In this document: positions 37,894 to 62,618 of the stretch, piece after piece | Layout of the letters: every line of letters starts with the position of its first letter | Position numbering within the stretch: the first letter of the stretch is position 1 | IMG/VR virus record: IMGVR_UViG_3300033463_000022 | Location: 22,542 to 86,541 of that record | Length of the DNA: 64,000 nucleotides | DNA from: a virus | Taxonomy: Duplodnaviria > Heunggongvirae > Uroviricota > Caudoviricetes | Strand: one strand, 5' to 3' | Made by a program: the position numbers and the translations under genes | The notes under the pieces: generated by a model | Databases searched by the model: none | Seen by the model: the letters and a program-made list of their open reading frames with translations, nothing else | Told to the model about the DNA's origin: nothing

Positions 37894-39786
37894 TTGGCTG
37901 ACAAAACCCTATACACAGAAAAAAGTATCGAGTCACTTAGCCCACTAGAGTTTACAAGGCTCCGGCCGCAGGTATACGCCGGTGATTGTACCTACTCAAC
38001 TCAGCTCCTAGTCGAAATTCTCGCTAATGCGATCGACGAGTTCCGTCTTGGTCACGGCTCGGATATCGACGTCAACATCAATAAGGACATAGTGCTTGTC
38101 CGTGACTATGGACAAGGCTTCCTAGTTAATTCTACCCGCGAAGACGGCAAGACCGTTCTCGAAGCCGCGTTCTCTGTTCTTAACACTTCCGGTAAATACC
38201 ACGATGATGGTGTTTATGAAGGTACGTCACTCGGCTCCTTCGGTATCGGTAGTAAAATCACTACCTTCCTCTCTCATTGGCTCCGTGTAACTACTTACCG
38301 CGATGGGCAATATGAGCAGCTTGATTTCAAGGAAGGTGTTTTTGATAAGCGGCAGGTCGGGAAAACAATCAATCCTCATATCACTGGCACAGAAGTATCT
38401 TGGCAGCCTAGCGAGCAATTCTTCACCCATACCGAGGTAGACGTTCCTATTATTACTAAGCTAATCCAAACGCTTGTGTGTCTGTGTCCCGGGCTCACAA
38501 TTAACCTTCAAGTAAATGGGAATACCTCTCATTATCATTCTGAGCATGGAATTGACGACCTTGTAGACCAAGGTACTAACGGTAAGGAAATCATCAAGAA
38601 CCGTTTCTCTACCCATTTCGAAGAAGGTAAGAATAAACTCGACCTCGTCCTCACCTATACCTCTAACCATTCTCTAACTATTGTTCCTTATGTCAATACA
38701 GGACTTACAGAGAGCGGTCCGCATATCGTCCAGATTAAGACCCTTCTCACTCGCGAGTTCAATAAGTTCTTCCGAGAGAAAGGCTACCTCAAAGAGAAGG
38801 ACGAAAATCTATCGGGCGACGATATCCAAGAAGGTATGTACCTTGTCTTTAATGTCACCGCACCTAATGTGGCTTACGATGCACAGGTCAAGTCCCGTGT
38901 CACTAGGCTGGAAATGAAGCCATTTACTTCTGCTCTTGCTGAAAACTTGCAATTCTGGTTGCAAGCTAATGAGAAGGAAGTTAAAGCAATTGCGGAAAAG
39001 GCATTGACTGCGCGCAAAGCCCGTGAAGCAGCTCGCAAGGCTCGCGATGCAGTCAGGGATATCAAGCCAAAAGAGAAAAACACCCTTAAGGCTAAGATGG
39101 CTTTGAGCGATAAATTTATTGACTGTACTAACAAAGACCCCGATAAGCGTACTTTAATTATCGTCGAAGGCGTGTCCGCGGCAGGAGCAGTTATCGAGGC
39201 TCGTAATCCTCAGACAGATGCCATCTATCTTCTCCGCGGTAAAATTATCAGCCCTCTTAAAACAGATGTTTCTAAGATCCTCGCCAATCAAGAGATGAGC
39301 GATTTAGTGAAGGTTATTGGCGCTGGTTTTGATAAGACTTTTGACCTTAGTAAGATGAACTTCAGTAAGATTCTTATCGCCACCGACCAAGATTCAGATG
39401 GTGAAGATATCGAACTTATGCTCACCACTTTCTTCTTTACGTACATGCGGCCGCTCGTGCTTGCTGGCAAACTCTACCGTGCTGTAACGCCTCTATATAT
39501 CGTCCGCCGCAACGGAAAAGAGCAATACTTCTATAGTGAAGAAGAATACCAAAATTGGCGAAAAGTAGATGGCAAAGGTGATGTTACTCGCGCGAAGGGC
39601 CTTGGTGAATTGAACGCTCCTGACCTGCACGCAGTTTGCTTTGAACACGAACGCTATAAGAGGCTTACGGTTAATGACGAAAAGGCTGTAACCGCTCTGC
39701 TAGAGACCTTGATGGGTAGCGCTATCGAACCCCGCAAACAATATATCTATAATAACGCAGAAAGGCTAGGGTTTAACTTCGTATGA
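37894..39786 (+). CDS. type II DNA topoisomerase large subunit (GyrB/T4 gp39-like: GHKL ATPase plus Toprim)
   Basis: ILANAIDE and GLHH-like ATPase motifs; Toprim EGVSAAG...DQDSDG; TAG-free. Confidence 0.85.
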   Translation: MADKTLYTEKSIESLSPLEFTRLRPQVYAGDCTYSTQLLVEILANAIDEFRLGHGSDIDVNINKDIVLVRDYGQGFLVNSTREDGKTVLEAAFSVLNTSGKYHDDGVYEGTSLGSFGIGSKITTFLSHWLRVTTYRDGQYEQLDFKEGVFDKRQVGKTINPHITGTEVSWQPSEQFFTHTEVDVPIITKLIQTLVCLCPGLTINLQVNGNTSHYHSEHGIDDLVDQGTNGKEIIKNRFSTHFEEGKNKLDLVLTYTSNHSLTIVPYVNTGLTESGPHIVQIKTLLTREFNKFFREKGYLKEKDENLSGDDIQEGMYLVFNVTAPNVAYDAQVKSRVTRLEMKPFTSALAENLQFWLQANEKEVKAIAEKALTARKAREAARKARDAVRDIKPKEKNTLKAKMALSDKFIDCTNKDPDKRTLIIVEGVSAAGAVIEARNPQTDAIYLLRGKIISPLKTDVSKILANQEMSDLVKVIGAGFDKTFDLSKMNFSKILIATDQDSDGEDIELMLTTFFFTYMRPLVLAGKLYRAVTPLYIVRRNGKEQYFYSEEEYQNWRKVDGKGDVTRAKGLGELNAPDLHAVCFEHERYKRLTVNDEKAVTALLETLMGSAIEPRKQYIYNNAERLGFNFV

Positions 39787-39798
39787 GGAGGGTGTAAT

Positions 39799-40485
39799 AT
39801 GGGGTTTATTTATAAAATAAGTTGTCCATATTCTTCAAAAGTCTATATTGGACAAACTATCAATTCAATATAGACGCGATTTCAATAGCATATTAGACGA
39901 GACAGCGGAACAAAACTCGCTTAGGCGTTTCAAAAATATGGAATCGAATCATTTAGCGTTGATTTAGTAGAAGAAGTCGACAACGAACGATTAAATGAGC
40001 GTGAAATTTTTTGGATCAGTCATTATGATTCATATAACCATGGCTATAATATGACTCCTGGCGGACAAACAACGGTTTATGCAGTAGAGCAAACAAAAAA
40101 AGCCGTAGAAAAACGAGACAAAGATACCTTTGAATTATTAGCGGTATATCCTTCTTTAGCCGAAGCAGCTAGAAGTTTAGGACTAGAGGGCGCAGAAAAT
40201 AAACGAAAAAATTTAACAAAATGCTGTCATCGAGAAATCCATGAAATCTATGGTTTCAGATGGAACTTTGTTGGAGAACCGCCTGATACAATAAAAATGG
40301 GCATGGTTAGAAGAATTCCTGTTTATATGTGCGATAAAAACACAAAAGAAATCTTGCAAAAATTTGATAGCGCAAAAGCGGCTAGTATTTATTTGGGTAA
40401 AATAAATGGAAGCCAAATTACTGCCTGTTGCAAGAAGCGTATTCCCAGTGCTTATGGGTATTTTTGGAGATATGTAAATGAATAA
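39799..40485 (+). CDS. GIY-YIG homing endonuclease inserted between the two topoisomerase II subunit genes (228 codons, 3 TAG)
   Basis: MGFIYKISCPYSSKVYIGQT...YWISHYDSYNHGYN plus two repeated IYGFRW/AYGYFWRY helix motifs. Confidence 0.75.
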
Positions 40486-42862
40486 TGAAAAAATTTCTCA
40501 GATAACCGAGATAGACATTCTCGAAGAAGCTAAAGAAAATTTCTTAGTTTATAGTGAGGAGGTCTTGACAGACCGAGCAATTCCGAGCGTTGAAGACGGT
40601 CTTCTATCCTCCCAGCGCAAAATTCTCTGGACGATGGAAGATCCTTTGAAGATGACTTCAAAGGGCAAGACAAAGAAAAGTCAGAGTGTTGTAGGTTCAA
40701 CGCTTTCTACTTCTTACTTCCACGGCGATGCAGCCTGCTATGGCGTTCTCAGTAAGATGGCGCAAACCTATCTAATGCGCTATCCTCTGATCGATGGTCA
40801 AGGTAACCTCGGTACACAGGCAGATAACTCTATGGTATCTGCTCCTCGTTATACAGAAGCCAAGCCTTCCGTCTATACAGACCTCATGATGACTGATTTT
40901 AAGAAGGACGTTGTCCCTCTTAAAGAAACCTATAACAACGAGTACATGGAGCCAGTGGTTCTCCCAGGTCTTTTCCCCAACGCCATCTGCAATGGCCGCC
41001 AAGCCATCGGTATCTCCATGGCGCACAATTCAATGTGCCATAATCTTACCGAAACGTGCAATGCGATTATTAAATATCTTGAGCAGGGCAGCCTTACGAT
41101 TGACGAGCTACTCGAAATCATGCCTGGTCCTGACTTCCCGCTAAGCCAGACAGTAATCAATAAAGATGCAGTGCGTGAAGCGTTCGCTACAGGTAAGTCT
41201 AAAACCTCTCTAAAGCTACGCGGCGACTTTCATGTTGATGGTAACAAAATTATCTTTACTACTATCCCATATCGCACTTATCGTAATAAGATAACTGAAC
41301 AATTCAATAAAAACATTGATGTATTCAGCGAAGTCTTTACAGACTTTAATGACGAGAGCAAACTCGGTCAAAATAAGTTGATCTTCACTCTAAAGCCCGG
41401 CATTGCCCCAGACAGAGCAGTTGCCCTTCTATTTGATCTCACCGACCTGCAAACTTCCGTATCTTACAACATGAACTTCATTGTTAATGGTACACCGAAG
41501 CTTTGCTCAATGATTGACCTTATCAGATATTACTGTGAACATCAAGAGGAAGTCCTCATTAAAGCTACGGAGTTTGATAAGGATAAGGCTGTAAAACGCG
41601 CTCATATCCTCGAAGGGTTGATAGCGGCAGTCGATAAAATTGATGAAGTCATCGCTCTTATTAAGCAGTCTGAATCTCGTGCCGAAGCAGCAGCTGGTCT
41701 TATTAAGCTTCTCTCTATCGACGATATCCAAGCGAAAGCAATTCTTGATATGAAGCTTGGAAACCTTACTCGTATCGACAAGCAAGAGTTAGTGAATGAG
41801 CTAAAGGAAAAGAGAGAGTTTATTGCAAAATGCGACGAGATTTTGAATGATAAGAGCGTGCGGGCCCGCGTGCTCATCGGGCGAGTAACCAAGCTTCGTG
41901 ACGTCTATGGAGACGCTCGCCGCACGAAGCTCGAACAATACAAGGTCGAACCTAAAGCCAAGAAGGAAGTTCCTATTAAGGAGCCTGAGGACGTAGTGGT
42001 TTTGATCTCGAATAATGGCGCCGCTAAGCGGGTGGCCCGCAAGTCCTTCAGAGTTCAAAAGCGTAATACCGCAGGCGTAAAAACCAATGGTGATATCACT
42101 GCTTTCTCTGTCTCAACCAACACTATAGATTCTCTACTTATCTTTACAACAAAAGGTAAGATGTATAGGCTCCTGGTGGAGAAGATCCCCGAAGGTTCTA
42201 ATACTTCAAATGGCACTTTCCTCTCTAACTTAATTGAATTTGACAAAGATGAGTCTCCCATTGCATATGCTACTGTAAATACAGATACAGCTAACAAATA
42301 CTTATTCTTTGCTACGAAAAATGGAGTTATCAAGAAAGTTCCTTTGGAAGAATATCTTAATACCAAGCGTTCCGGGGTACTAGCAATCTCCTTTAAAGAT
42401 GGTGATGAACTAGCGTCAGTAACCTTCATTAATCAAGAGGAAATGATGTTGGTTACAAAGGACGGTATGGTCATTCGATTCCCAACCGCGACAATGCCAA
42501 TCTCTAGTAGAATTGCTCAAGGCGTTAAGGGTATTGGATTGAATGATGGAGACGAGGTATTGGTTGCCCTACCTATTACTAACCCCGAAAATTCTTTGGC
42601 TGTTGTTTCAACAACAGGAAAAGGTAAGAAGACCAAACTCTCTGAATTCACGAGTCAGAACCGTGGAGGTAAGGGTATTGCTTGCTACAAGGAAGAAGTA
42701 GCTGGCGCTGCACTTATCTCAGAAGAGGATAATATTCTAATAAGTGGTAATAAATCTTCTATAGTGATTGCGGCCGGCGATATCCCGCTACTAGGACGCA
42801 CGACTGCTGGTAACATCTTGTTAAAAAACAATGATGCAGTAGTCTCCATTGCTAAGTTCTAA
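40478..42862 (+). CDS. type II DNA topoisomerase subunit A (GyrA/ParC/T4 gp52-like)
   Basis: IPSVEDGLLSSQRKILWTM and AxRYTE active-site Tyr region; C-terminal beta-pinwheel; TAG-free. Confidence 0.85.
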   Translation: MNNEKISQITEIDILEEAKENFLVYSEEVLTDRAIPSVEDGLLSSQRKILWTMEDPLKMTSKGKTKKSQSVVGSTLSTSYFHGDAACYGVLSKMAQTYLMRYPLIDGQGNLGTQADNSMVSAPRYTEAKPSVYTDLMMTDFKKDVVPLKETYNNEYMEPVVLPGLFPNAICNGRQAIGISMAHNSMCHNLTETCNAIIKYLEQGSLTIDELLEIMPGPDFPLSQTVINKDAVREAFATGKSKTSLKLRGDFHVDGNKIIFTTIPYRTYRNKITEQFNKNIDVFSEVFTDFNDESKLGQNKLIFTLKPGIAPDRAVALLFDLTDLQTSVSYNMNFIVNGTPKLCSMIDLIRYYCEHQEEVLIKATEFDKDKAVKRAHILEGLIAAVDKIDEVIALIKQSESRAEAAAGLIKLLSIDDIQAKAILDMKLGNLTRIDKQELVNELKEKREFIAKCDEILNDKSVRARVLIGRVTKLRDVYGDARRTKLEQYKVEPKAKKEVPIKEPEDVVVLISNNGAAKRVARKSFRVQKRNTAGVKTNGDITAFSVSTNTIDSLLIFTTKGKMYRLLVEKIPEGSNTSNGTFLSNLIEFDKDESPIAYATVNTDTANKYLFFATKNGVIKKVPLEEYLNTKRSGVLAISFKDGDELASVTFINQEEMMLVTKDGMVIRFPTATMPISSRIAQGVKGIGLNDGDEVLVALPITNPENSLAVVSTTGKGKKTKLSEFTSQNRGGKGIACYKEEVAGAALISEEDNILISGNKSSIVIAAGDIPLLGRTTAGNILLKNNDAVVSIAKF

Positions 42863-42992: not shown

Positions 42993-44159
42993 ATGGGTTT
43001 CGATATAGCTAAAGTAGAGAAACTTTATCCCGGCGCAGGTCCTTTCATGCAGGAAGCGATGCTCATATGGAAGCTTCCCGCAGGAAAAGAAAATAAAATG
43101 AGCGAAGTTTGCTCTAATGGCGAATATTTTGCCGAAGAGAAGATTGACGGTGCGTGGTATCAATTCACCAAAGGAACCGGAGGTCAAGAATATCTCTTCG
43201 GTCGCACTACCTCACGCGTAACAGGTCTTATGACAGAAAAGGGACAGAATGTTCCCCACATTCTTTCTGCTCTTAATTGTTTGCCTAACGGGACAGCTTT
43301 GATCGGTGAGGTATATTTCGATGGAGGCACAGCGAGAGATACTGTTACTATTACGGGATGTCTTCCGCAAGAAGCAGTTCGTCGTCAGAATAATCCAAAA
43401 GGAAAAGGTTTAATTAAATATTACGTTCATGATATTATATTCTATGATGGCGAAAATTTAATGGGAACTGGTGCTTTTGATAGATACGCTATCCTCCAAG
43501 CCATCTGGCAGAAGTATGAGTTATCTAAATTTCCTTTCCTACGTCTTGCTACTATTGTTGAAACAGGTATTGAAGAAGAGGTCTCTCGAATCCTCGCTGC
43601 GGGAGGAGAAGGCATGGTATTAAAGAAGAGAGATGCCGTCTATAGCCCAGGAAAGCGCCCTGCATGGAGTGCTATAAAGTTCAAGCAGATGGATTCAGAG
43701 GATCTCGTTTGTACTCGTACAATCGCACCTACAAAAGAATACACTGGTAAGGAACTTGATACATGGCAGTATTGGGGAAGAATGACATATATCTTCAATG
43801 AAACGACTAAAGAAGGGGTTCCTTGTGAAGTTATTTCCTGCTGTGGACCGACCGACGACAGTGATGAATGGTATCCAATAACTAAACCCTATGCTCTTAA
43901 ATGGCCCTCTGCTATTGGTATCGGCGCATATGACGACAATGGCGAGCTAAAAGAAATTGGTACTATTTCGTCTGGTCTTACTGACGCTGATAAACAAGCA
44001 ATGGCTGATAATCCAGATGCTTTTATTGGCAAAGTTATGCATTGTTACGGCATGTCAAGAGATCGAAAAGAGCAAACATTTAGACACTTCTCCTTTGGTG
44101 GTTGGAGAGATGACAAAGATGCTAAAGATTGCAAACTAAGCGAGATCTTTGGCAGCTAA
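42993..44159 (+). CDS. ATP-dependent DNA ligase
   Basis: Adenylation motif EEKIDGAWYQF (KxDG) and OB domain. Confidence 0.8.
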   Translation: MGFDIAKVEKLYPGAGPFMQEAMLIWKLPAGKENKMSEVCSNGEYFAEEKIDGAWYQFTKGTGGQEYLFGRTTSRVTGLMTEKGQNVPHILSALNCLPNGTALIGEVYFDGGTARDTVTITGCLPQEAVRRQNNPKGKGLIKYYVHDIIFYDGENLMGTGAFDRYAILQAIWQKYELSKFPFLRLATIVETGIEEEVSRILAAGGEGMVLKKRDAVYSPGKRPAWSAIKFKQMDSEDLVCTRTIAPTKEYTGKELDTWQYWGRMTYIFNETTKEGVPCEVISCCGPTDDSDEWYPITKPYALKWPSAIGIGAYDDNGELKEIGTISSGLTDADKQAMADNPDAFIGKVMHCYGMSRDRKEQTFRHFSFGGWRDDKDAKDCKLSEIFGS

Positions 44160-44773: not shown

Positions 44774-45733
44774 ATGTTTTACGGTTTAATTATCGAAGGC
44801 ATCTGTCTACTTGCTCTTTTTATTCTGTACTTGCGGGCGCGAGGTCAAGCGCGGCATACAGTCTAGCGTAACGACGCCATAGAGCAAGAAAACTAGCAAT
44901 TGGCTAATACAAATGACTAGCTACGTATTGAGTAGATGGCTCTTAATGAGTAGCGCAATGCTTCAGAGAAGCACTTAGAGTCATTAAAAACTTAGGTGTA
45001 GGCATAGGGCAACATTTTATAGAGCTACACTTTAACCACCCAATAGCTTGAAAAAGACGCCAAAGAGCGGGCTGAGCAGAGCTATTAGGCGGCGGCCGCA
45101 AGCCTAGCACAAAAGTATGGTTAGCAAGAAGCTGAATTAGAAACAACTTATTAGCAACACTCATAGTAGTTATTATCCCGTATTAAAGAAGAAGAAAATA
45201 AGCTAAAAGATTTAGAAGATAAATAGCTTGCTTATATTAAAGCAAAACAACGAGAAGAAGAAATTGCTGCTTAGCGAGATTATTATCGACTAGTTCTTGA
45301 AGATATAGATTGTGAAGAGATAAAGCTTCTTCGTAATTTATAGGTACAATTCTCAAGGAAAGAAGCCATCGATAAGCTTATATGGGAGAGTTACTACAAA
45401 GCAGCTTACGACCTCTTGATGACGCATTTGTTCTAGAGTTCTGATAAATTATGCGGCATCTATAAAATCACTAATCTTGAAAACGGTTAGGCGTATATTG
45501 GGCAGTCTGTTGATATAAAAGAGCGGTTTAGATAGCATATCAAATCTGCTCTAACAAGCGGCCCTACAACCAATAAGCTATATCAATAGATGAAGAAATA
45601 CTAGCCCGAAAATTTCACTTTTGAAATACTGGAATCGGTTTCGCGAGATAAATTGAATGAACGAGAATAGTACTGGATAGACTTTTATAAAACAAAAGAC
45701 TATGGAATGAATGGGACAAAAGGTGGGTCATGA
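44774..45733 (+). CDS. TAG-saturated ORF: TM helix plus Gln-rich coiled coil fused to a C-terminal GIY-YIG nuclease domain (319 codons, about 25 in-frame TAG)
   Basis: Frame free of TAA/TGA for 319 codons in AT-rich DNA while carrying about 25 TAG; C-terminal LCGIYKITNLENG-Q-AYIGQSVDIKERFR-Q-HIK...NEREQYWIDFYKT is a GIY-YIG core. Confidence 0.55.
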
Positions 45734-48233: not shown

Positions 48234-49217
48234 ATGGCTATTGATCTTTTAGCAATAGAACCTCATAAGGTTAGTACTGATCTCTCGGGGTATATTACCT
48301 ACCTCTATGGAGCTGCTAAGGTCGGTAAAACAACTCTTTGTAGTAAATTTCCTGGCACATTGATCCTGGCTTTTGAGCGTGGTTATAACGCCCTGCCTGG
48401 CGTTATGGTTCAAGACATTACTCGTTGGAGCGAATTCCGAGAAGTTATTCGTGAACTCAAGAAGCCAGAGGTTAAAGAGAAGTTTTCAACTATCGTAGTT
48501 GACACTGTTGATGTTGCTGGTTCTCTCTGCGATAAGTATATCTGTAATCAGCTTGGCATTGATACCCTTGGTGAGGGTGGATGGTCGGTGAACGGTTGGG
48601 CAGCATATAAGAAAGAGCTTGAAGACTGCTTCCGCACTATTACTCAGATGGGCTATGCCTTGGTGTGCATTAGCCATGACCAAGATAAGACATTCAAGCG
48701 CAAAGACGGCACCGAATATAACCAAGTTGTTCCTACTGCACAGAAGAGCTTGAACAATATCATTCGTGATATGGCTGACCTTTATCTTTACGCAGCAATA
48801 GACGAGAGCACCAAAGAGCGTAAACTCATTGTTCGTTCTCTTGATAATACTGTTGACTGCGGCAGCCGCTTTAAGTATATGGCTAACGAGATTCCTCTCG
48901 ACTACAACGCTCTTGTAAAGGCGCTGAATGACGCCATTGATGAAGAAGCTAAGGAACACGACAATCAGTTTGTTACTAACGAGAAGATAAAGCCTCTTGA
49001 GGCTACTCCAAAGCAGGACTTCAACTCTATGAAGGATGAATTTGGCGAGCTAGTTGGCAAGGTCATGCAATCCAATCCAGCTAACGCCGCAAGCATCACG
49101 GCCATCGTTGACAAGTATCTCGGTAAAGGCAAGAAGGTTGGAGATTGCAATCCTGCTCAAAGTGAACAGCTCGAGCTGATACTAGTCGAGCTTCGCGACC
49201 TCGCAAACAATAACTAA
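48234..49217 (+). CDS. RecA-family ATPase (Sak4/RadA-like)
   Basis: Walker A GYITYLYGAAKVGKTTL and Walker B IVVDTVD. Confidence 0.65.
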   Translation: MAIDLLAIEPHKVSTDLSGYITYLYGAAKVGKTTLCSKFPGTLILAFERGYNALPGVMVQDITRWSEFREVIRELKKPEVKEKFSTIVVDTVDVAGSLCDKYICNQLGIDTLGEGGWSVNGWAAYKKELEDCFRTITQMGYALVCISHDQDKTFKRKDGTEYNQVVPTAQKSLNNIIRDMADLYLYAAIDESTKERKLIVRSLDNTVDCGSRFKYMANEIPLDYNALVKALNDAIDEEAKEHDNQFVTNEKIKPLEATPKQDFNSMKDEFGELVGKVMQSNPANAASITAIVDKYLGKGKKVGDCNPAQSEQLELILVELRDLANNN

Positions 49218-49299
49218 ATACTCTACAAAGGGAGGGCTTGCCAGCACGAGCCTTCCCTTGACTTTTTTTTTATTATACGTTATAATATAAAAGGAAGGA

Positions 49300-53010: not shown

Positions 53011-54282
53011 TTGGACTATACACTTATAAACCCCATAAACCCCAAAATATCCCCTATTGAATAGGTGCTTGTTAATCGAGGGTTTAAACTAGAAGATATC
53101 CCTCATTATCTTCATGTAACGAAAGAGGACAATTTATCTCCGCGACTTTTGAATAATATTGATAGAGCTGTCTCTCTTTTAGGTAAACATATAATGGATG
53201 ATAATTCTCATATCCATATATAGGTAGATAGTGACTGCGATGGTTATACCAGTGCAGCTTGTTTGCTAGATTATATTTACCTAGCTTTTCCAACCGCTAT
53301 ATCAAAGTTCTCCTATTCCTTCCATGATGATAAAACTCACGGCATTGATACAAAAAACATACCAAGTGACACCACATTAGTAATAGCACCTGATGCTTCT
53401 AGTAATGAATATGATACTCATAAAGCTCTTTCAGAAAAAGGCATTGATGTATTGGTAATAGACCACCACCAAGCCGATAGGATCTCTGAGTACGCCTGTG
53501 TTGTGAATAATCAGCTATGTGACTACCCCAATAAGGCATTAAGTGGCGTAGGTGTGGTATATAAAGTTTGTCAGCGCTTCGACGAACTTATGAATACTGA
53601 CTATGCAAACCAACTAGTAGATTTAGTCATGCTGGGGCTCACGGGAGATATGATGGACTTGCGATCTCTTGAGACTAAATATCTCGTAAATCAAGGTATC
53701 GCGCATCTTAGAAACCCGTTTATTAAGGGCATGGCGGAGAAGAATGAACATTCGCTCGGTTCGCAAATTACACCCATTGGTGTTGCTTTCTATATTGTAC
53801 CATATGTTAATGCTGTAACAAGAGTAGGGACACAAGAAGAGAAGTAGCTGCTTTTTAAAAGTATGCTAAACTGGGAAGCTTTTAATATTGTACCCTCTAC
53901 TAAGAAAGGCTGTAAAGGGCAGACAGAAACTATCGTAACACAAGCTGTTCGTACTTGCCAAAATATCAAGAACCGTCAAACAAAAGTACAGGAAGCCGCG
54001 GTAGAAGATCTTGAAGAGCTGATTGCGGCCGCCGGGTTACTGGAGCATAAAGTCTTAATCTTCCAGCTCGATGACTCATTCTCTATTACGCCAGAACTTC
54101 GAGGTCTGATAGCGAATAAGTTCATGGCTAAATATTGTAGACCAGTACTTATGTTGTCACTCACAGAATACGAAGGTAAGCCCGCTTTAATGGGGTCTGC
54201 ACGAGGTTATGAGAAATCAAAACTCTTGGATTTCCGCAAATTCTGTAGGGAATCTGGTCTGGTGTTCTTGGCTGAGGGTTAG
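53011..54282 (+). CDS. RecJ-like DHH/DHHA1 single-strand exonuclease (423 codons, TTG start, 3 TAG)
   Basis: DHH motifs HIHI-Q-VDSDCDGYTSAA and VLVIDHHQ; frame joins three listed ORF fragments across TAGs at 53062, 53221 and 53848; RBS AAAGGA. Confidence 0.65.
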
Positions 54283-54477
54283 CTTTAGTGTGGCCCTAAA
54301 ACTTTTTTCCGTCTTATCAACGGGGTCGCTAATTAAATGGCCAATTCTGGACATTCTTGATTAGTTGGCTAACGAGAAAACCTAAATATAATAGAGGATA
54401 TTATACATGGTAATCTCGTGGGAAGAATTATTCTTTATATGACGTCCTCTTAATTTAGAATTAAGGAGACATAAAGT

Positions 54478-55326
54478 ATGTTAAAAAGCATCTATAAAAT
54501 TACCAATACCCTAAATAACAAATGCTACATCGGTCAAACAGATGACGTAAAACGTAGATTTACTGAGCATAAAGCTCTAGGGTATGGTCGAGAAAATTCC
54601 ATTTTATATCGCGCTATCAAAAAATACGGTCTTGAGAATTTTACATTTGAAGTAATTGAAGAGAATATTGAAAATTATAACGAAAGAGAAAAATATTGGA
54701 TTGCATATTATGATTCATATTAGAGTGGCTACAATATGACACCAGGTGGAGAAGAGCCTCCAGTGAAATATGGAGAAAATCATCCTCTTGCAACGCACTC
54801 AAAAGCCGAATCCGAGGAAGTAAAAAATCTGTTACTGGCAACTCAAATGACCGTAAAAGAAATCGCTCAAAAGATGGCATATAACGTTTCTTCTATCATA
54901 AGAATTAATAATGGAGCACTTTGGCATGATGATACACTCGATTATCCGCTTAGAAAAGAATTAAGTAAAAAATTCAACGAAGACCGTGCATTAAGAATAA
55001 TTGATGACTTGCTAAATACAAGTATGACCCAGAGAGAAATTGCCGTTAAATACGGAGTAGGACGCTCTACAGTAACAGCCATAAACAATGGTTAGAATAA
55101 TAGGCAAGATGATTTAGAGTATCCAATTCGAGATAAAGATAGAGATAAATAGTCAAAACATATTTTTATGATAGATAAAGACACTGACGAAATTCTTAAA
55201 GATTTTGTTAATGCCAAAGAAGCGGCTCGCTATCTTGGCGATGCCGGTATGGCAACTGCATTACAAACATGCGCAAGGGGGAATTCAAGAACTTCCCATG
55301 GATATAAATGGAGATATAAAGAATGA
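54478..55326 (+). CDS. GIY-YIG homing endonuclease (282 codons, 3 TAG)
   Basis: MLKSIYKITNTLNNKCYIGQTDD...KYWIAYYDSY-Q-SGYNMTPGG; C-terminal NUMOD-like repeats. Confidence 0.75.
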
Positions 55327-55613
55327 TTAACCTGTATCGACTATCTCGGGTGAGACCGAGAGTACTGGCACTATTGATACGTGCTGGGAAAAGGAGTTCC
55401 CTTCGGGGTAAGAAATAGTCAGCGCTGCTGGAAACAGTAGAATAATCGCACCCTAATGCTTTCGGTTTTGGAATCTACCTGGAAAACATAGAGAAGTTCA
55501 TCGCTTACTCTGATGAAAAACTCAAAGATATAGAGTTCTCTCCTAGCTACAGAGTAGACTTTATTTTTCAAGGTTCTCAAGTTGACCCGCAGACCGTTCT
55601 TGAAGTTGGCACT

Positions 55614-55925
55614 ATGAAAACTCTATGGGGACAGAATATCGACGAGGCATATGTCGCAGTTGAAAGGCTAAATGTTACTAAAGAAATGGTAACTCTTATG
55701 TCCCGTGATAAAAGCCCAACACTTAAAATTTCTCTACCTAATGGAGTAGCTTGTATCAAATTCAAGTCAAGCGAAGAAGAGTATGAATCTTTGCTGACTG
55801 AAACAGGTTGCGTAACACTTACAATTATTGGTAAGTGTGAAGTAAATAGATACTTTAACTCTGTCACACCACAGATTATTATTGAAGACTACGAAATTGT
55901 TGATCGAATGGATTATTACTTCTGA
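55614..55925 (+). CDS. OB-fold-like protein, possibly the RecJ C-terminal domain separated by the homing-endonuclease insertion
   Basis: Open frame extends upstream to 55446; beta-rich GCVTLTIIGKCEVNRYFNSVTPQIIIEDYEIV pattern. Confidence 0.35.
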   Translation: MKTLWGQNIDEAYVAVERLNVTKEMVTLMSRDKSPTLKISLPNGVACIKFKSSEEEYESLLTETGCVTLTIIGKCEVNRYFNSVTPQIIIEDYEIVDRMDYYF

Positions 55926-56712: not shown

Positions 56713-56717
56713 GAATA

Positions 56718-57200: not shown

Positions 57201-58385
57201 ATGGAGTTGACTAAACGACAAGAACAAGGGCTCGCTACGGCGCTATATAAGTACCGTCATGGCGACCCATTCACGGTTATAAGTGGCTACGCAGGTACAG
57301 GTAAGTCTACACTTATCATGTTTATAATCGCGGCGCTCGACCTTAGCCAGCAAAACGTGGCATATGTCGCTTATACCGGCAAAGCCGCTCAAGTGTTAAG
57401 ATCTAAAGGGTGCCCTAACGCGGTTACAGCCCATCGTTTACTATATAAATCAGTCCGACAAAGCGATGGAACTTTTAAACATTATCCGAAGATGGAGCTT
57501 GATGGAAACTATAAGTTGATAGTAGTAGATGAAGTATCTATGCTTCCAAAAAAAATGTGGGACTTGTTACTATCCCATCATATACACGTAATAGCTTGCG
57601 GCGACCCCGCGCAGCTACCCCCCATCGATAAGGATGCAGATAACCACGTTCTAGACCATCCAGACGTCTTCCTTGACGAGATTATGCGCCAGGCCGCAGA
57701 TAATGACATTATTAGACTATCTATGGATGTGAGAGAGGGTCGCGCTATCTCTACATTCAAGGGGAAAGACGCCAATATTGTTCGTTCCGCAGATTTCAAT
57801 GATGGAATGATGGAATGGGCAGACCAAATTATCTGTGGTAAAAACAATACAAGAAACGAGTTAAATCGCCACTATAGAGAGTTGCTGTGGGGCGAGGATG
57901 TAACTTCTATTCCTCTTGTTGGAGACAAATTGATATGTTTGAAGAATGATTGGGATCAAGTTACCGAGGTGGGAGATGCCTTAGTAAATGGAACAACAGG
58001 TCGATTAAAGAAGATAGATATCATAGGTAGCGATGATTTTTTGGGAAAGAAATGTTTTATCGACTTTGACCCAGAAGTAGACGATACTGACCAGCTTGAT
58101 ACAGTATTCCATAATCTCTTGATTGATTGGAAGTTAATAACTACTAATATACCCACTATTACTAAAGAGAACTGGAGAACACTTCCTTGGTTTGTAAAGA
58201 AACTTCCGCTCGAACAGTTTGACTATGGGTATGCCATTACTGCTTGGAAAGCGCAAGGCTCCGAATTTGGAAAAGTAACATTCCTCGCTGAAAACGTTGG
58301 GCATATGGACAGAGATACATACAAGAGGTATTTATACACCGGAATCACACGTGCGAGTGAAAAGCTCACGCTAGTATTGCCATAA
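57201..58385 (+). CDS. Dda/RecD-like SF1 DNA helicase
   Basis: GYAGTGKSTLI, VVDEVSM and GDPAQLPP motifs. Confidence 0.8.
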   Translation: MELTKRQEQGLATALYKYRHGDPFTVISGYAGTGKSTLIMFIIAALDLSQQNVAYVAYTGKAAQVLRSKGCPNAVTAHRLLYKSVRQSDGTFKHYPKMELDGNYKLIVVDEVSMLPKKMWDLLLSHHIHVIACGDPAQLPPIDKDADNHVLDHPDVFLDEIMRQAADNDIIRLSMDVREGRAISTFKGKDANIVRSADFNDGMMEWADQIICGKNNTRNELNRHYRELLWGEDVTSIPLVGDKLICLKNDWDQVTEVGDALVNGTTGRLKKIDIIGSDDFLGKKCFIDFDPEVDDTDQLDTVFHNLLIDWKLITTNIPTITKENWRTLPWFVKKLPLEQFDYGYAITAWKAQGSEFGKVTFLAENVGHMDRDTYKRYLYTGITRASEKLTLVLP

Positions 58386-58721: not shown

Positions 58722-61700
58722 ATGTATTTTGATAACCACTCGCATACTTGTTTCTCGAACGTGCGTTTGCTCGACAGCATCAACAATTATGATTCTCTAA
58801 TTAACAAGGCTTTAGAATATGGTCTTAGTGGCATTGCCATTACCGACCATGAAATTCTCTCTAGCCATATGAAAGTAAATAAGCTTGCAAAGAAGCTCCA
58901 TGAGACTAATCCCGATTTTAAGGTCGTCTTGGGGAATGAGATCTATCTTACTGATACACGTGATATGGGTCAGAAATACTATCACTTCATTCTCCTTGCC
59001 AAGGATCTCGTCGGCTATCGTGCGCTCAAGGAGCTTTCTTCTATAGCATGGATGAATAGTTACTATGATCGTCGTCTGGAACGAGTTCCTACACTTAAGA
59101 GCGAACTTGCAGAAGTGATGAAGAAATATAAGGGACATATAGTAGGGACTACTGCCTGTATTGGCGGAGAACTGGGTAGTTCAATCCTTGCTCTTACAGC
59201 TTGCGAAGAAGTTGATGATAATGTAAATGCTCAACGCTATCACAATCAGATTGTTAGCTTTCTTGAATTCTGCATTGACACCTTCGGTAAGCAAGACTTC
59301 TATCTCGAAGTAGCGCCGGCCGCAAGCCCAGAGCAAATTACTGTCAACCAACGCATTCTTTCTATTGCTAAAGCATTTGACCTCAGTCTCTGTATTGGTA
59401 ACGATGCTCACTATCTTACTAAAGAGGATCGCTATATCCATAAAGCCTACCTTAATTCCAAAGGTGGCGAGCGAGAAGTTGATGACTTCTATGAATATTG
59501 CTATCTTAAAACCGAAGAAGAAGTTAAAGACCTTCTTCGTGAAAGTTTTGATGCAACTACAGTAAACTCCATTATTGATTCTTCTAATGAACTAGCTAGT
59601 AAATTTGAGTTTTATAGTCTAGAACACAATCAAAGCGTTCCAGAAGTAGAAGTTAAAGATTATCCTAAGTCTGCTTGGTGGGGAGTAAACAATCCTCTCG
59701 CTGACGATTTTAATCCCGGCGGTCGTTATGAAGAACTAGGTAGATTATTCACTTCTGACAATATCCAAGAGCGTTATTGGGTAAATGAATGCTGGAACGC
59801 CCTTAATGAAAAGATCGGTTATTGGGGCGAGCATGAAGATTATGTAGCAAGATTAAATGAAGAAGCGAGAGTAAAGAGAGTAGTTGGCGAGAAACTCAAT
59901 ACCTGTATGTTCGCCTATCCTAATACTCTAAAGCACTATATCGACCTCTTCTGGGAGTGCGGTTCTACTGTTGGAGCAGGTCGTGGTTCTTCGTGCGCAG
60001 CGCTCAACCACTATCTCCTTGGTATTACCCAACTCGATCCTATCAAATGGGAGCTTCCTTTCTGGCGTTATATGAATGATGACCGTGTTGAGCTAGGCGA
60101 TATTGACCTTGACCTTGCACCTTCTAAAATTCAAACAATTTTTTCTGCGATTAGAGAAGAAAGGGGAGAGCTTGGTCTTGTCCAGGTCTCGACATTTGGT
60201 ACCGAAGGAACTAAGTCTGCAATCCTTACAGCTTGCAGAGGATATAGATCGGAAAGTTTTCCAGAAGGCATTGATACTGATGAAGCCCAGTATCTTAGCT
60301 CACTTATACCGTCAGAACGCGGCTTCCTATGGCCTATCGAAGATGTGGTTAATGGAAATGCAGAGAAAGGCAGAAAGCCAGTCCAACCTTTCATCGCCGC
60401 AGTTAACCAGTATCCAGGACTCTTGGAGATCATTACTCGTATCCAAGGGTTGGTTAACAAAAGATCCAGCCATGCTTCCGGCGTCATCTTATTTAATGAA
60501 GACACTATCTTTGACTCTGCGGCGGTTATGCGAACCCCAAAAGGAGCATTGATTACCCAGTGGGATCTGCATGACCAAGAGGCAGCAGGAAGTGTCAAAT
60601 ATGACTTTCTTTTAACAAGCGTACAAGATATTATTATCAAGACTATCGAACTCTTGCAAGAAGATGGCGTAATTGAAAAAGATATGTCGCTTCGAGAGAT
60701 TTATAATAAATATCTGCATCCTGCTGTTCTTCCGCAAGACGATGAAAAGATGTGGGACGCATTAGCAAACGGCGATGTACTGGGTTGCTTCCAATTTGAT
60801 AGTGCTGTTGGCAGTCGAGCCGCAAAGATGATTAAACCTAAGAATCCAAGAGAAATGGCAGATGCCAATGGATTAATGAGACTAATGACTTCTGAAAAAG
60901 GGCAAGAAACTCCTATGGAGAAGTATGTCCGATTTAAGAATAATATATCTCTTTGGTATAAAGAAATGGACGCTTATGGATTAACAAAAGAAGAGCAAGA
61001 AGCGTTTAAGCCGCATTTTCTTTCTTCTTACGGTGTTCCGCCATCTCAAGAGCAGATGATGACGATGCTACAAGATAAAAAGCTTTGTGGTTTCAGCTTG
61101 AAAGAAGCCAACGACGCACGAAAGATTGTTGGTAAGAAGCAGATGAATCGTATTCCTGAGCTGAAACAAAAGGTGATGGATAGCGCAACGTCTGCGGCGG
61201 TTGGTAGATATATCTGGAATTGTGGCATCGGCCCGCAAATGGGATATTCATTTAGTATCATTCACGCGCTTGCTTATTCATTTATCGGAATGCAAACCCT
61301 TTATCTAGCTACCCATTTCAACCCTATCTATTGGAACACTGCATACTTAATCGTCAATTCTGGTTCTATTGATGAAGATGCGGCAGAGCAGACTGACTAT
61401 ACTAAAGTCGCCAGAGCATTGGGAGAAATTATGAACGCGGGAATTAAAATCTCATTGGCGGATATCAATAAATCAGTCTTTGGCTTCTCTCCCGATGCAG
61501 ATAATAACCAAATTCTATTTGGATTAAAAGGGCTTGTTAACGTTAATAACGATCTCGTTAAAACAATTATCGACAATCGCCCCTACACCTCTATGTATGA
61601 CTTCATGGCTCGCGTTAATCCTAACAAGCAAGCGATGATTGCCTTGATTAAAGGTGGTGCTTTTGACCAGTTCTACCCTACGCGCTATCAGGCTATGGTA

Positions 61701-62618
61701 GAATATATTTGGACGACCTGCGATAAGAAAAAGCGATTGACTTTGCAAAATATGCCAGGTCTAATTCGCGCAGGACTTTTGCCAAACAATACAGAAAAGC
61801 AAAAACTTGCAAGACGCTTCTATGAGTTTAATAGATACCTTAAGGCGGAATGCAAGACGGACGGTGGATATTGGGCAGATGAAAGAGCTATTGATTTCTT
61901 AAATGAATTAGATTATGGTGGTTTAATTCAAAATAAATTTGGTCGTCCCTTTATTGATGCAAAAAACTGGGATAAGGAGTATCAAGGGTGGATGGATGTA
62001 TTCCGCGATTGGATTAAAGCAGATCCACAAGGAATACTTGATAAATTGAATACCAAGATTTTTATGGCAGACTGGGAGAAGTATGGTAAAGGCAGCTTGT
62101 CCTCTTGGGAAATGGAAGCGTTATGCTTCTACTACCATGACCATGAGCTGAAGAATGTCAACAAAAGTAAGTACGGAATTGTAGATTATAGCAGCTTGCC
62201 AGAAGAGCCAGAAGTTGAAAAATTCTTCAAACGTGGCAACGCGCAAATTCCCATTTATAAGCTGCATGTTATCTGCGGCACGTGCTTAGCGAAAGACAAA
62301 ACCAAGCACGTAGTATATTTACTCACCCCAAATGGAGTCGCAACAGTTAAGTTCCGTGGAGAACATTTTGCGGCGTTCGATAAGCAGGTATCTCAAAGAA
62401 ACCCCGATGGTACGAAAACTATCATTGAGCGTAGTTGGTTTAACCGAGGCAATATGCTAATGGTCCAAGGCATCAGACGCGGCGATGAATTCGTAGCGAA
62501 GAAGTACAGTACGAGTAATCTCCATCAATTGTATCATATTGATGGTATTAAAGAGAATGGTGACCTTGTTTTGAGAAGTGAAAGATATGACGGTGAGCAA
62601 GAGGAGGAAGACTCTTGA
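58722..62618 (+). CDS. dnaE: DNA polymerase III alpha subunit (DnaE-type, N-terminal PHP domain), 1298 aa, TAG-free
   Basis: PHP motif FDNHSHTCFS...AITDHE, palm, fingers and C-terminal OB region. Confidence 0.9.
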   Translation: MYFDNHSHTCFSNVRLLDSINNYDSLINKALEYGLSGIAITDHEILSSHMKVNKLAKKLHETNPDFKVVLGNEIYLTDTRDMGQKYYHFILLAKDLVGYRALKELSSIAWMNSYYDRRLERVPTLKSELAEVMKKYKGHIVGTTACIGGELGSSILALTACEEVDDNVNAQRYHNQIVSFLEFCIDTFGKQDFYLEVAPAASPEQITVNQRILSIAKAFDLSLCIGNDAHYLTKEDRYIHKAYLNSKGGEREVDDFYEYCYLKTEEEVKDLLRESFDATTVNSIIDSSNELASKFEFYSLEHNQSVPEVEVKDYPKSAWWGVNNPLADDFNPGGRYEELGRLFTSDNIQERYWVNECWNALNEKIGYWGEHEDYVARLNEEARVKRVVGEKLNTCMFAYPNTLKHYIDLFWECGSTVGAGRGSSCAALNHYLLGITQLDPIKWELPFWRYMNDDRVELGDIDLDLAPSKIQTIFSAIREERGELGLVQVSTFGTEGTKSAILTACRGYRSESFPEGIDTDEAQYLSSLIPSERGFLWPIEDVVNGNAEKGRKPVQPFIAAVNQYPGLLEIITRIQGLVNKRSSHASGVILFNEDTIFDSAAVMRTPKGALITQWDLHDQEAAGSVKYDFLLTSVQDIIIKTIELLQEDGVIEKDMSLREIYNKYLHPAVLPQDDEKMWDALANGDVLGCFQFDSAVGSRAAKMIKPKNPREMADANGLMRLMTSEKGQETPMEKYVRFKNNISLWYKEMDAYGLTKEEQEAFKPHFLSSYGVPPSQEQMMTMLQDKKLCGFSLKEANDARKIVGKKQMNRIPELKQKVMDSATSAAVGRYIWNCGIGPQMGYSFSIIHALAYSFIGMQTLYLATHFNPIYWNTAYLIVNSGSIDEDAAEQTDYTKVARALGEIMNAGIKISLADINKSVFGFSPDADNNQILFGLKGLVNVNNDLVKTIIDNRPYTSMYDFMARVNPNKQAMIALIKGGAFDQFYPTRYQAMVEYIWTTCDKKKRLTLQNMPGLIRAGLLPNNTEKQKLARRFYEFNRYLKAECKTDGGYWADERAIDFLNELDYGGLIQNKFGRPFIDAKNWDKEYQGWMDVFRDWIKADPQGILDKLNTKIFMADWEKYGKGSLSSWEMEALCFYYHDHELKNVNKSKYGIVDYSSLPEEPEVEKFFKRGNAQIPIYKLHVICGTCLAKDKTKHVVYLLTPNGVATVKFRGEHFAAFDKQVSQRNPDGTKTIIERSWFNRGNMLMVQGIRRGDEFVAKKYSTSNLHQLYHIDGIKENGDLVLRSERYDGEQEEEDS

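What the first reader, a model, noticed from the sequence alone, without database searches (positions are those of the whole stretch)
37894..62618. TAG-free replication genes versus TAG-containing structural, endonuclease and accessory genes suggest a temporal code-switch
DnaE (1298 codons), DnaB, primase, both topo II subunits, DNA ligase, Dda, UDG, the Ro60-like gene and the RNA ligase contain zero TAG. Tail fibres, GT2, flagellin, RecJ, PhoH, all GIY-YIG genes and several hypotheticals carry 1 to 25 each. This is the pattern proposed for recoded phages in which early genes are translated under the host code and late genes only after the suppressor tRNA is expressed.
Basis: inference. Interest (0 to 1): 0.6.

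Follow-up and report, generated by a model that had tools for sequence, protein, structure and literature searches.

The report
Amber-recoded phage spares its replication genes
This is part of a large gut or rumen phage that reads the TAG stop codon as glutamine, but uses it almost only in tail, lysis and homing-endonuclease genes and not in its DNA-replication genes; this split is real, but it has already been described for other recoded phages.

Summary
GyrB, GyrA, DNA ligase, DnaB, primase, Dda, DnaE, UDG and the Ro60-like gene have no in-frame TAG. The RNA ligase has one, at codon 461 of 462. Tail-fibre genes, GT2, flagellin, RecJ, PIN-PhoH and all five GIY-YIG genes have 1 to 24.

- **Counts:** replication and repair genes carry 3 TAG in 5856 codons, all in RecJ. 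The tail-fibre cluster carries 20 in 2542 and the GIY-YIG genes 37 in 1357. Fisher tests give P from 1e-8 to 1e-24.
- **Control:** out-of-frame TAG is equally common in both classes.
- **Rest of the genome:** 16.5 kb of the same genome beyond the window holds an endolysin (6 TAG) and tail genes (4 to 14 TAG).
- **Decoding:** TAG aligns mostly with Gln in homologues, and a tRNA-CUA lies at 17685-17758.
- **Relatives:** DnaE is TAG-free in 10 of 12 TAG-recoded relatives, but two relatives have TAG in DnaB and DnaE. RecJ carries TAG in 10 of 12.

It fits, but timing is not shown by sequence. I rate this a new member of a known kind, of low to moderate interest.

Side findings are a likely group I intron in RecJ and Y RNA-like genes next to the Ro60-like gene.

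The parts
17685..17758 (+). Suppressor tRNA with anticodon CUA and an encoded CCA end. It has a U1.U72 mismatch and G73, and its D and T loops are degenerate.
   Evidence: ARAGORN. Rfam tRNA match of 40.8 bits. Cloverleaf as the minimum-energy fold. tRNA-CUA genes of other phages share U1.U72, G73 and the anticodon arm.
17513..17541 (+). Sigma-70-like promoter, TTGCAA-17-TATAAT, in front of the Y RNA-like gene and the tRNA-CUA. The same cassette precedes the tRNA arrays at 2144 and 14325.
   Evidence: This is a consensus match only.
17763..17807 (+). A 13-bp hairpin followed by a T run, directly after the tRNA-CUA. It looks like an intrinsic terminator.
   Evidence: Fold energy -17.5 kcal/mol, z-score -6.9.
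37894..39786 (+). GyrB-like topoisomerase II subunit, 0 TAG.
   Evidence: Pfam DNA_gyraseB, Toprim and GyrB_C. Counts.
39799..40485 (+). GIY-YIG/NUMOD1 homing endonuclease with 3 TAG (codons 25, 30, 42). It starts 12 nt after the GyrB stop and overlaps the GyrA start.
   Evidence: Pfam. Counts.
40478..42862 (+). GyrA/topo IV subunit A, 0 TAG.
   Evidence: Pfam, E = 1e-100.
42993..44159 (+). ATP-dependent DNA ligase, 0 TAG.
   Evidence: Pfam.
44774..45733 (+). Protein with a transmembrane segment, a coiled coil and a GIY-YIG domain. It has 24 TAG in 319 codons, which is 67% of its Gln-type codons.
   Evidence: Pfam GIY-YIG at residues 227-308. Counts.
48234..52708 (+). AAA_24 ATPase, hypothetical gene 49300, DnaB helicase and Toprim primase. 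None has an internal TAG. The hypothetical gene ends TAG-TGA.
   Evidence: Pfam..
53011..54279 (+). RecJ-like (DHH) exon 1 with 3 TAG at codons 18, 71 and 279. Two of them align with Gln in the L010 orthologue.
   Evidence: Pfam DHH. tblastn.
54280..55448 (+). Intervening sequence in RecJ, a probable group I intron. It carries the GIY-YIG plus HTH endonuclease 54478-55326 (3 TAG).
   Evidence: Seamless exon junction LAEG|HPNAFG, a 5' exon ending in T and an intron ending in G. There is no Rfam intron match.
55449..55925 (+). RecJ exon 2 (OB domain), 0 TAG. There is no start codon near the junction.
57201..58385 (+). Dda/SF1 helicase, 0 TAG.
   Evidence: Pfam AAA_30 and UvrD_C_2.
58722..62618 (+). 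DnaE-type Pol III alpha, 1298 codons, 0 TAG.
   Evidence: Pfam. 40% identity to SPbeta YorL.
6381..14032 (+). Tail-fibre cluster: Mtd_N, GT2, YadA-head-repeat and Ig-domain proteins. It has 20 TAG in 2542 codons.
   Evidence: Pfam. Counts.
16267..17466 (+). Flagellin with 1 TAG, at the Gln of the conserved motif MRxQIxGL.
   Evidence: Pfam Flagellin_N and Flagellin_C. The sequence read, compared with Bacillus Hag from my own knowledge.
33388..34683 (+). PIN-PhoH protein with 1 TAG, at codon 34 inside the PIN domain.
   Evidence: Pfam.
18823..20343 (+). Ro60-like (DUF2828/DUF7788) gene, 0 TAG.
   Evidence: Pfam.

Best explanation
The window is part of a large, uncultivated phage, probably 135 kb or more, from a rumen or gut sample. 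Its likely host is an Oscillospiraceae-type clostridial bacterium. The phage decodes TAG as glutamine with its own tRNA-CUA.

In-frame TAG is kept out of the replisome and of most accessory genes, which can therefore be translated by the unmodified host machinery. TAG is frequent in virion, lysis and GIY-YIG homing-endonuclease genes, and is also present in RecJ.

The most likely function is the published code-switch gate. Until enough charged tRNA-CUA has accumulated to outcompete RF1, ribosomes stop at the mostly 5'-proximal TAGs. Tail, lysis and DNA-cutting proteins are then not made, even when their mRNAs are present, as for the endonuclease genes embedded in replication operons.

What is shown: the recoding, Gln as the likely meaning, the suppressor tRNA, the non-random partition, and its recurrence in relatives. 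What is inferred: the order in time, the RF1 competition, and the adaptive value.
For: - **The ORFs are real.** TAA/TGA-only ORFs tile 91% of the window, all on one strand. Pfam domains span TAG positions.
- **TAG means Gln.** Gln is the commonest partner at TAG positions in alignments with relatives: 29 of 194 and 28 of 134, against a 3.6% background. RecJ and NrdD show direct TAG-to-Q matches.
- **A suppressor is encoded.** tRNA-CUA was found.
- **The partition is strong.** Replication and nucleotide genes have 5 TAG in 6999 codons. Virion and lysis genes have 63 in 5790 (Fisher P = 1.8e-16).
- **It is not composition.** Out-of-frame TAG is equal in the two classes. GC3 ranges overlap.
- **Late genes carry TAG.** The endolysin has 6 TAG and the 621-aa tail protein 14.
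- **It recurs in relatives.** DnaE is TAG-free in 10 of 12 TAG-recoded relatives and primase in 11 of 12.
- **Promoters differ by class.** Strong sigma-70-like intergenic promoters precede tRNA arrays, GyrB, ligase, the DnaB-primase unit and DnaE. None precedes the fibre, lysis or tail blocks.
- **TAGs sit early in genes.** The first TAG lies at mean relative position 0.19, against 0.31 simulated (P = 0.002).
- **The pattern is published.** Borges et al. describe the same pattern, including a recoded intron endonuclease in an early gene.
Against: - There are no expression data.
- The tRNA-CUA has the same host-type promoter cassette as the other tRNA arrays and would be transcribed from the start of infection.
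- Its D and T loops lack the usual GG and T-Psi-C elements, so its efficiency is unknown.
- RecJ, PIN-PhoH, flagellin and NrdD carry TAG without any evidence that they are late.
- FliD, the lysozyme-domain protein and a transmembrane protein in the lysis cassette have none.
- L007 and L025 have TAG in DnaB (6 and 2) and DnaE (2 each). L031 has TGA in DnaE, DnaB and primase.
- No RF2, RF1 or aminoacyl-tRNA synthetase gene was found in about 89 kb.
- The 5' bias could be inflated by start codons called too far upstream.
Confidence: 0.6

Rival explanations
1. Tolerance without timing. TAG read-through is never complete. TAG therefore drifts in wherever some truncated product is harmless, and is purged from long or dosage-critical enzymes such as DnaE, gyrase and DnaB. 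The partition would then reflect a cost of suppression and not a clock.
For: - Leaky cases exist in relatives: TAG in DnaB and DnaE of L007 and L025, and TGA in the replisome of L031.
- TAG occurs in RecJ, PhoH, flagellin and NrdD.
- The suppressor has an early-type promoter.
- No code-change proteins were found.
Against: - Virion and lysis proteins are usually needed in the largest amounts, yet they carry the most TAG.
- The 5' bias of TAG and TAG-bearing endonuclease genes inside TAG-free operons fit gating better than drift.
- The partition recurs in 10 of 12 relatives.
Confidence: 0.25
2. Mosaic origin. The TAG-bearing modules (fibres, homing endonucleases, the lysis and tail block) came by recombination from more heavily recoded phages. 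The replication module came from, or is exchanged with, standard-code relatives.
For: - The clade mixes TAG-recoded, TGA-recoded (with tRNA-UCA) and standard-code members.
- GIY-YIG genes have a distinct low GC3 of 0.25-0.26 and are mobile.
- Host-like accessory genes have a high GC3 of 0.58-0.66.
Against: - The replication module is syntenic across 32 relatives at 46-73% DnaE identity. That is ample time for synonymous CAG-to-TAG change, yet DnaE stays free of recoded stops in all but 3 of the 32.
- RecJ, inside that module, does carry TAG at sites that are Gln in relatives.
- Replication and fibre genes with the same GC3 differ in TAG.
Confidence: 0.1
3. No recoding. The TAGs are true stops, and the TAG-containing ORFs are pseudogenes or chance open frames.
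For: A few TAGs lie within 0 to 3 codons of the next stop and may act as real terminators. In dUTPase, TAG falls exactly at the end of the domain.
Against: - A 327-codon frame holds 24 TAG and no TAA or TGA.
- Domains and orthologue alignments run through TAG.
- Gln is enriched at TAG positions.
- A tRNA-CUA is encoded.
Confidence: 0.02

Closest known systems
Stop-codon-recoded gut phages with standard-code replication genes (Borges et al., bioRxiv 10.1101/2021.08.26.457843). The closest case is the 'Agate' clade.
   Same: - A phage-encoded suppressor tRNA.
- In-frame recoded stops concentrated in structural and lysis genes.
- Replication machinery without recoded stops.
- A recoded homing endonuclease inserted in an early gene.
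- A clade that mixes TAG-recoded, TGA-recoded and standard-code members.
- Genomes of roughly 125-180 kb, ruminant or animal gut samples, and a Firmicutes-type host.
   Different: - Membership of Agate itself was not tested, because no terminase was available.
- No RF2 was found here, although two TAG-recoded Agate phages have one.
- Here RecJ is a recurrent recoded exception inside the replication module.
phAss-1 / 'Phassvirus' TAG-recoded gut phages (PMC10607447)
   Same: - A genome of about 136 kb and many tRNAs, including tRNA-Sup-CTA.
- DNA polymerase III alpha, a flagellin-like ORF and an Ig-domain protein.
- A Clostridia host is predicted, and no dedicated synthetase was found.
   Different: - There is no DNA similarity to any record in the phage collection.
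- The best DnaE protein matches there are SPbeta-like at 40% identity, so this phage is at most distantly related.
- In phAss-1, several DNA-processing enzymes are also recoded.
Block-wise dual coding in crAss-like phages (Mgcod, bioRxiv 10.1101/2022.06.29.495998) and proteomic proof of TAG-to-Gln (PMC9523058)
   Same: Genomes are divided into standard-code and TAG-reassigned sections, and TAG is read as Gln.
   Different: - The host phylum is different (Bacteroidota).
- Here the TAG-bearing genes are partly interspersed as single genes inside standard-code operons. They do not form one contiguous block.

Membership tests
TAG-to-Gln (code 15) recoded phage with a code-switch partition | In-frame TAG inside ORFs whose homology continues across the TAG | tested here: met
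   Pfam domains span TAGs in the GIY-YIG genes, GT2, DHH, PIN and flagellin. The RecJ orthologue alignment runs through 3 TAGs.
TAG-to-Gln (code 15) recoded phage with a code-switch partition | TAG corresponds to Gln in homologues | tested here: met
   Gln is the commonest partner, at about 15-21% against a 3.6% background, followed by E, R and K. There are direct Q matches in RecJ and NrdD. No peptide evidence is available.
TAG-to-Gln (code 15) recoded phage with a code-switch partition | Phage-encoded suppressor tRNA with anticodon CUA | tested here: met
   17685-17758. Whether it is charged with Gln was not tested.
TAG-to-Gln (code 15) recoded phage with a code-switch partition | Recoded codons enriched in structural and lysis genes and depleted in replication genes | tested here: met
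   63 TAG in 5790 codons against 5 in 6999 (P = 1.8e-16). This covers about 89 kb of a genome that is probably larger than 135 kb. Capsid, portal and terminase genes were not seen.
TAG-to-Gln (code 15) recoded phage with a code-switch partition | The host uses the standard code | tested here: inconclusive
   The phage flagellin is closest to Oscillospiraceae and other Clostridia genomes, with up to about 90% identity in segments. No bacterium with TAG read as Gln is known to me. The host itself was not identified.
TAG-to-Gln (code 15) recoded phage with a code-switch partition | TAG-free genes are expressed before TAG-containing genes | not testable with these tools
   Only indirect evidence exists: the distribution of sigma-70-like promoters.
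Agate clade (Borges et al.) | Placement in the terminase phylogeny, or ANI to named Agate genomes | not tested
   No terminase was found in the accessible sequence, and no Agate genomes are in the searchable collections.
Group I intron with a GIY-YIG homing endonuclease (the RecJ intervening sequence) | Precise interruption of a conserved coding sequence, a 5' exon ending in U, an intron ending in G, and a P1 guide pairing | tested here: met
   The junction is LAEG|HPNAFG. The exon ends in GGT and the intron ends in G. GCCCT in the intron can pair with AGGGT of the exon. Exon 2 has no nearby start codon.
Group I intron with a GIY-YIG homing endonuclease (the RecJ intervening sequence) | A conserved catalytic core recognised by a covariance model | tested here: not met
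   No Rfam match at E up to 1 in 54200-55520.
Bacterial and phage Y RNA (YrlA) with a Ro60/Rsr-like protein | A tRNA-like domain plus a closing stem, encoded next to a Ro60-like gene | tested here: inconclusive
   The Rfam YrlA match scores 34.8 bits, below the gathering score of 69, with E = 2e-6 locally. A model built from three copies finds similar elements upstream of Ro60-like genes in at least 14 other phage loci.

The most novel reading that the evidence does not exclude
Outside the virion and lysis genes, the amber codons may act mainly as a translational lock on DNA- and RNA-cutting enzymes that are transcribed together with early genes. These are all five GIY-YIG endonucleases, the RecJ exonuclease (recoded in 10 of 12 TAG-recoded relatives while its replisome neighbours are not) and the PIN-PhoH protein. 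The 5'-proximal placement of TAG would keep truncated products short. A few TAGs with a back-up stop within 0 to 3 codons might still serve as terminators early in infection.
Probability: 0.2. Interest if true: 0.5.

Novelty: new member of a known kind. Interest (0 to 1): 0.25.

Why it matters
The window adds a well-resolved example from a likely Oscillospiraceae phage lineage. In this lineage TAG recoding, TGA recoding and the standard code all occur among relatives with syntenic replication modules. That makes it a useful clade for asking how a code change spreads gene by gene.

It also has a practical consequence. Standard-code gene calling shatters the fibre, lysis and endonuclease genes; the JGI calls split GIY-YIG genes into pieces of 44 to 51 aa.

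It does not change what is known about recoded phages, and it does not test the temporal model.

Tried and rejected
- **DNA similarity:** megablast of the interval against 50,697 phage records found no match.
- **Intron model:** an Rfam scan for a group I intron core in the RecJ intervening sequence found nothing.
- **Ribozyme:** an Rfam E-value scan found no HDV-like or theta ribozyme 3' of the tRNA-CUA. The sequence there is a hairpin plus T run.
- **Codon context:** the base after TAG does not differ from the base after CAA or CAG (P = 0.34).
- **Terminal TAGs as relic or early stops:** the window has 6 against 2.4 expected (P = 0.04). There is no excess in 259 ORFs of TAG-recoded relatives, so I treat this as weak.
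- **Coupling of the suppressor to the Y RNA-like gene:** the two are adjacent here but not in other phages that have both. The adjacency is probably incidental.
- **GC3 as an explanation:** rejected, because replication and fibre genes of equal GC3 differ in TAG.
- **The 24-TAG gene as unusually strongly recoded:** its TAG share of Gln-type codons (0.67) equals that of GT2 and a small tail gene. It is simply rich in Gln.
- **Retrieving the downstream contig with a protein query:** this returned 80 unrelated phage loci. An exact DNA pattern worked instead.


Full report
**What the window is.** All sizeable ORFs lie on the + strand. GC content is 42.6%. ARAGORN finds 17 tRNA genes, among them a tRNA with anticodon CUA at 17685-17758. 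Rfam adds three more tRNA-like hits. With TAA and TGA as the only stops, ORFs tile 91% of the window.

Pfam and PHROGs give the following layout:
- FliD, followed by a tRNA array.
- A tail-fibre cluster at 6381-14271, with Mtd_N, GT2, YadA-head-repeat and Ig-domain proteins.
- Flagellin.
- The tRNA-CUA cluster.
- A Ro60-like gene and an RNA-repair-like set: cREC_REC, an RlaP-like protein, RNA ligase, two metallophosphatases and an AAA_33 kinase.
- Transporters, an SPFH protein and PIN-PhoH.
- UDG and a pyrimidine-dimer glycosylase.
- A replication block from 37894: GyrB, GyrA, ATP ligase, AAA_24, DnaB, primase, RecJ, a Dda-like helicase, DnaE and guanylate kinase.

No phage record shares DNA similarity with the interval. 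DnaE is 40% identical to SPbeta YorL.

**Check of the observation.** The RNA ligase has one, at codon 461 of 462. The maximum is 24, not 25, in the 319-codon GIY-YIG protein at 44774-45733.

RecJ needs a correction. The single-ORF orthologue of relative L010 aligns to 53011-54279 and then, without a gap, to 55449-55925. The two TAGs at "codons 424 and 426" therefore lie in an intervening sequence, and RecJ has 3 TAG.

| Class | TAG | Codons |
|---|---|---|
| Replication/repair (all 3 in RecJ) | 3 | 5856 |
| Fibre cluster | 20 | 2542 |
| GIY-YIG genes | 37 | 1357 |
| All other genes | 9 | 7448 |

As a share of Gln-type codons (TAG + CAA + CAG), TAG makes up 0.016 in replication genes, 0.29 in the fibre cluster, 0.47 in GIY-YIG genes and 0.035 in the rest. 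Fisher tests run from 2.5e-8 (replication against fibre, per codon) to 5e-24 (replication against GIY-YIG). Heterogeneity across genes remains at P = 4e-13 after removing the 24-TAG gene.

Replication genes hold 161 out-of-frame TAG trinucleotides, or 10.2 per kb. Fibre genes hold 11.4 per kb. The avoidance is therefore specific to the reading frame. GC3 does not explain it: primase, ligase, DnaB and DnaE (0.32-0.39) overlap Mtd_N, GT2 and fib6381 (0.33-0.36).

The stated coordinates cover only the replication block.

**TAG is a sense codon, most likely Gln.** Domain matches run across TAGs. In BLASTP alignments between window proteins and ORFs of relatives, the residue opposite a TAG is most often Gln: 29 of 194 for window TAGs and 28 of 134 for relatives' TAGs, against a 3.6% background. 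E, R and K follow. In RecJ, two of three TAGs face Gln. In NrdD, a relative's TAGs face Gln in this genome. The flagellin TAG sits at the Gln of the conserved MRxQIxGL motif; this comparison with Bacillus Hag rests on my own knowledge.

The tRNA-CUA folds as a cloverleaf. Like tRNA-CUA genes of other large phages, it has a U1.U72 mismatch, G73 and the anticodon arm GGGGUCUCUAAAACCUC. Unlike them, its D loop has no GG and its T loop reads AGCGUAA, so how efficient it is remains open.

**Beyond the window.** The same genome could be extended in both directions.
- *Upstream.* JGI contig Ga0265301_10000464 is identical over window positions 1-6260 and adds 8.8 kb. That stretch holds six ORFs of unknown function with no TAG or one near-terminal TAG, another GIY-YIG gene and more tRNAs.
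- *Downstream.* IMGVR_UViG_3300028797_000704 is identical over the last 4890 bases of the window and adds 16.5 kb. It holds the genes in the table below.

| Downstream gene | TAG | Note |
|---|---|---|
| NrdD | 1 | at codon 3 |
| NrdG | 0 | |
| dUTPase | 1 | TAG falls exactly at the end of the domain |
| Holin-like protein | 2 | + strand |
| Endolysin | 6 | PHROG endolysin, E = 1.6e-28 |
| Tail genes, 402 aa / 86 aa / 621 aa / 634 aa | 6 / 4 / 14 / 6 | - strand |

Pooled, virion and lysis genes have 63 TAG in 5790 codons and replication and nucleotide genes have 5 in 6999 (P = 1.8e-16). Capsid, portal and terminase genes were not reached.

**Relatives.** DnaE retrieves 33 loci from IMG/VR, of which 32 are relatives and one (L006) is this same genome. 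Many lie on contigs of 100-180 kb. By ORF tiling and codon counts the clade holds three kinds of member:
- TAG-recoded: L007, L010, L011, L013, L017, L022, L024, L025, L026, L034, L036, L037.
- TGA-recoded: L027, L030 and L031. tRNA-UCA genes occur in L014, L015 and L023.
- Standard-code members.

| Gene, among the 12 TAG-recoded loci | Result |
|---|---|
| DnaE | TAG-free in 10 |
| Primase | TAG-free in 11 |
| DnaB | TAG-free in 9 |
| RecJ | carries TAG in 10, up to 10 per gene |

L007 and L025 have 2 TAG each in DnaE, and 6 and 2 in DnaB. L031 has 2 TGA in DnaE. The partition is thus a conserved tendency, maintained over 46-73% DnaE identity. It is not an absolute rule, and RecJ is a recurrent exception inside the replication module.

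**Evidence bearing on a temporal gate.** None of it is direct.
1. Strong sigma-70-like promoters (10 or more of 12 positions) in intergenic DNA precede the three tRNA arrays, which share one conserved cassette. They also precede GyrB, the ligase, the wHTH unit, the hyp49300-DnaB-primase unit and DnaE. None precedes the fibre cluster, the lysis cassette or the tail genes. This suggests two transcription classes, but these are consensus matches only.
2. GIY-YIG 39799-40485 starts 12 nt after the GyrB stop and overlaps the GyrA start. GIY-YIG 44774-45733 overlaps the start of the next TAG-free gene. A third GIY-YIG gene lies inside the RecJ intervening sequence. These genes must share transcripts with TAG-free genes, so any separate control has to act on translation.
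3. Within TAG-bearing genes, TAGs lie towards the 5' end. 30 of 100 fall in the first fifth. A Mann-Whitney test against CAA/CAG positions gives P = 0.003. The first TAG sits at mean relative position 0.19, against 0.31 simulated (P = 0.002). Start codons called too far upstream could inflate this.

Against a simple late-suppressor model, the tRNA-CUA unit has a host-type promoter (17513-17541) and its own hairpin plus T-run terminator. It should therefore be transcribed from the outset, and any delay would have to come from accumulation and competition with RF1. No release factor or synthetase gene was found.

**Comparison with what is known.** Borges et al. (bioRxiv 10.1101/2021.08.26.457843) describe exactly this pattern:
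- Recoded stops in structural and lysis genes.
- Variable but often absent recoding in replication genes.
- Suppressor tRNAs.
- A recoded group I intron endonuclease inside an early gene of Agate phages.
- Agate genomes of about 127-154 kb with TGA-recoded, TAG-recoded and standard-code members, from cattle, pig and tortoise.

Mgcod (10.1101/2022.06.29.495998) formalises block-wise dual coding. PMC9523058 shows TAG-to-Gln by proteomics. phAss-1 (PMC10607447) is a similar TAG-recoded Clostridia-type phage with Pol III alpha, a flagellin-like gene and many tRNAs, but it shares no detectable DNA similarity with this window. The present genome is therefore a new member of a known kind. I could not test whether it belongs to Agate.

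**Host.** The phage flagellin is closest to Oscillospiraceae, Oscillibacter and other Clostridia genomes, including sheep rumen and colon MAGs. This is a lead and not an identification.

**Verdict.** The interpretation fits and gains some support from the extended genome, the relatives, the promoter layout and the codon positions. Its temporal core remains an inference, and there are real exceptions. Interest is low to moderate.

Noticed in passing
window 54280-55448 (RecJ exons 53011-54279 and 55449-55925): RecJ is interrupted inside its conserved LAEG|HPNAFG motif by a 1169-nt sequence that carries a GIY-YIG plus HTH endonuclease (54478-55326). The 5' exon ends in T and the insert ends in G. 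GCCCT near the start of the insert can pair with the exon's AGGGT. Exon 2 has no start codon nearby. This points to a group I intron, yet no Rfam model matches it.
   Followed up: partly
window 17561-17677 (+); weaker copies at 4005-4137 and 2623-2732: A Y RNA-like (YrlA) element with a tRNA-like domain lies between a promoter and the tRNA-CUA, about 1.1 kb upstream of a Ro60-like gene (18823-20343). A covariance model built from three copies finds similar elements upstream of Ro60-like genes in at least 14 other large-phage loci. The odd 'tRNA' with a 4-base anticodon (gttt) at 4045-4118 overlaps one of the weaker copies, so it is probably part of a Y RNA-like gene and not a tRNA.
   Followed up: partly
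window 21908-29532: An RNA-repair-like gene set follows the Ro60-like gene: a cREC_REC domain, an RlaP-like nucleotidyltransferase, an RNA ligase, two metallophosphatases and an AAA_33 kinase. Together with more than 20 tRNA genes, it may counter host nucleases that cut tRNAs.
   Followed up: no
window 4283-4368 (+): A tRNA with a long variable arm and a Ser-like D arm (a class II body) carries the Gln anticodon UUG. It also has an A1.C72 mismatch. No ordinary tRNA-Gln was found in the window.
   Followed up: no
window 1213-2139 and 16267-17466: The phage encodes a flagellar cap protein FliD and a full-length flagellin. The flagellin is closest to Oscillospiraceae and other Clostridia genomes. 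It and three other accessory genes (the Ro60-like gene, the RNA ligase and SPFH) have much higher GC3 (0.58-0.66) than the rest of the window, which suggests recent uptake.
   Followed up: partly
loci L200-L279 (Ro60-like homologues in IMG/VR phages): In 22 of 80 large-phage loci a tRNA-CUA lies within 4 kb of the Ro60-like gene, mostly upstream on the same strand. This may only reflect that the gene sits next to tRNA arrays.
   Followed up: no
loci L034, L035, L036, L038 (DnaE), L036 and L038 (DnaB), L035 (Dda): In several relatives DnaE, DnaB or Dda is split by an inserted GIY-YIG or other ORF. Homing-endonuclease insertions in replisome genes are therefore common in this clade.
   Followed up: no
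window 2100-2230, 14281-14411, 17469-17599: Three tRNA-array leaders share a conserved cassette of about 45 nt, TTTGCAA..ATTAAAAAA..TATAATATAT. Each is preceded by a hairpin.
   Followed up: partly
window 26434-27048, 30243-31526, 31538-32482: The phage carries a formate/nitrite-transporter-family gene, a xanthine/uracil permease and an SPFH/band-7 protein. All three are TAG-free membrane proteins and are unusual phage cargo.
   Followed up: no
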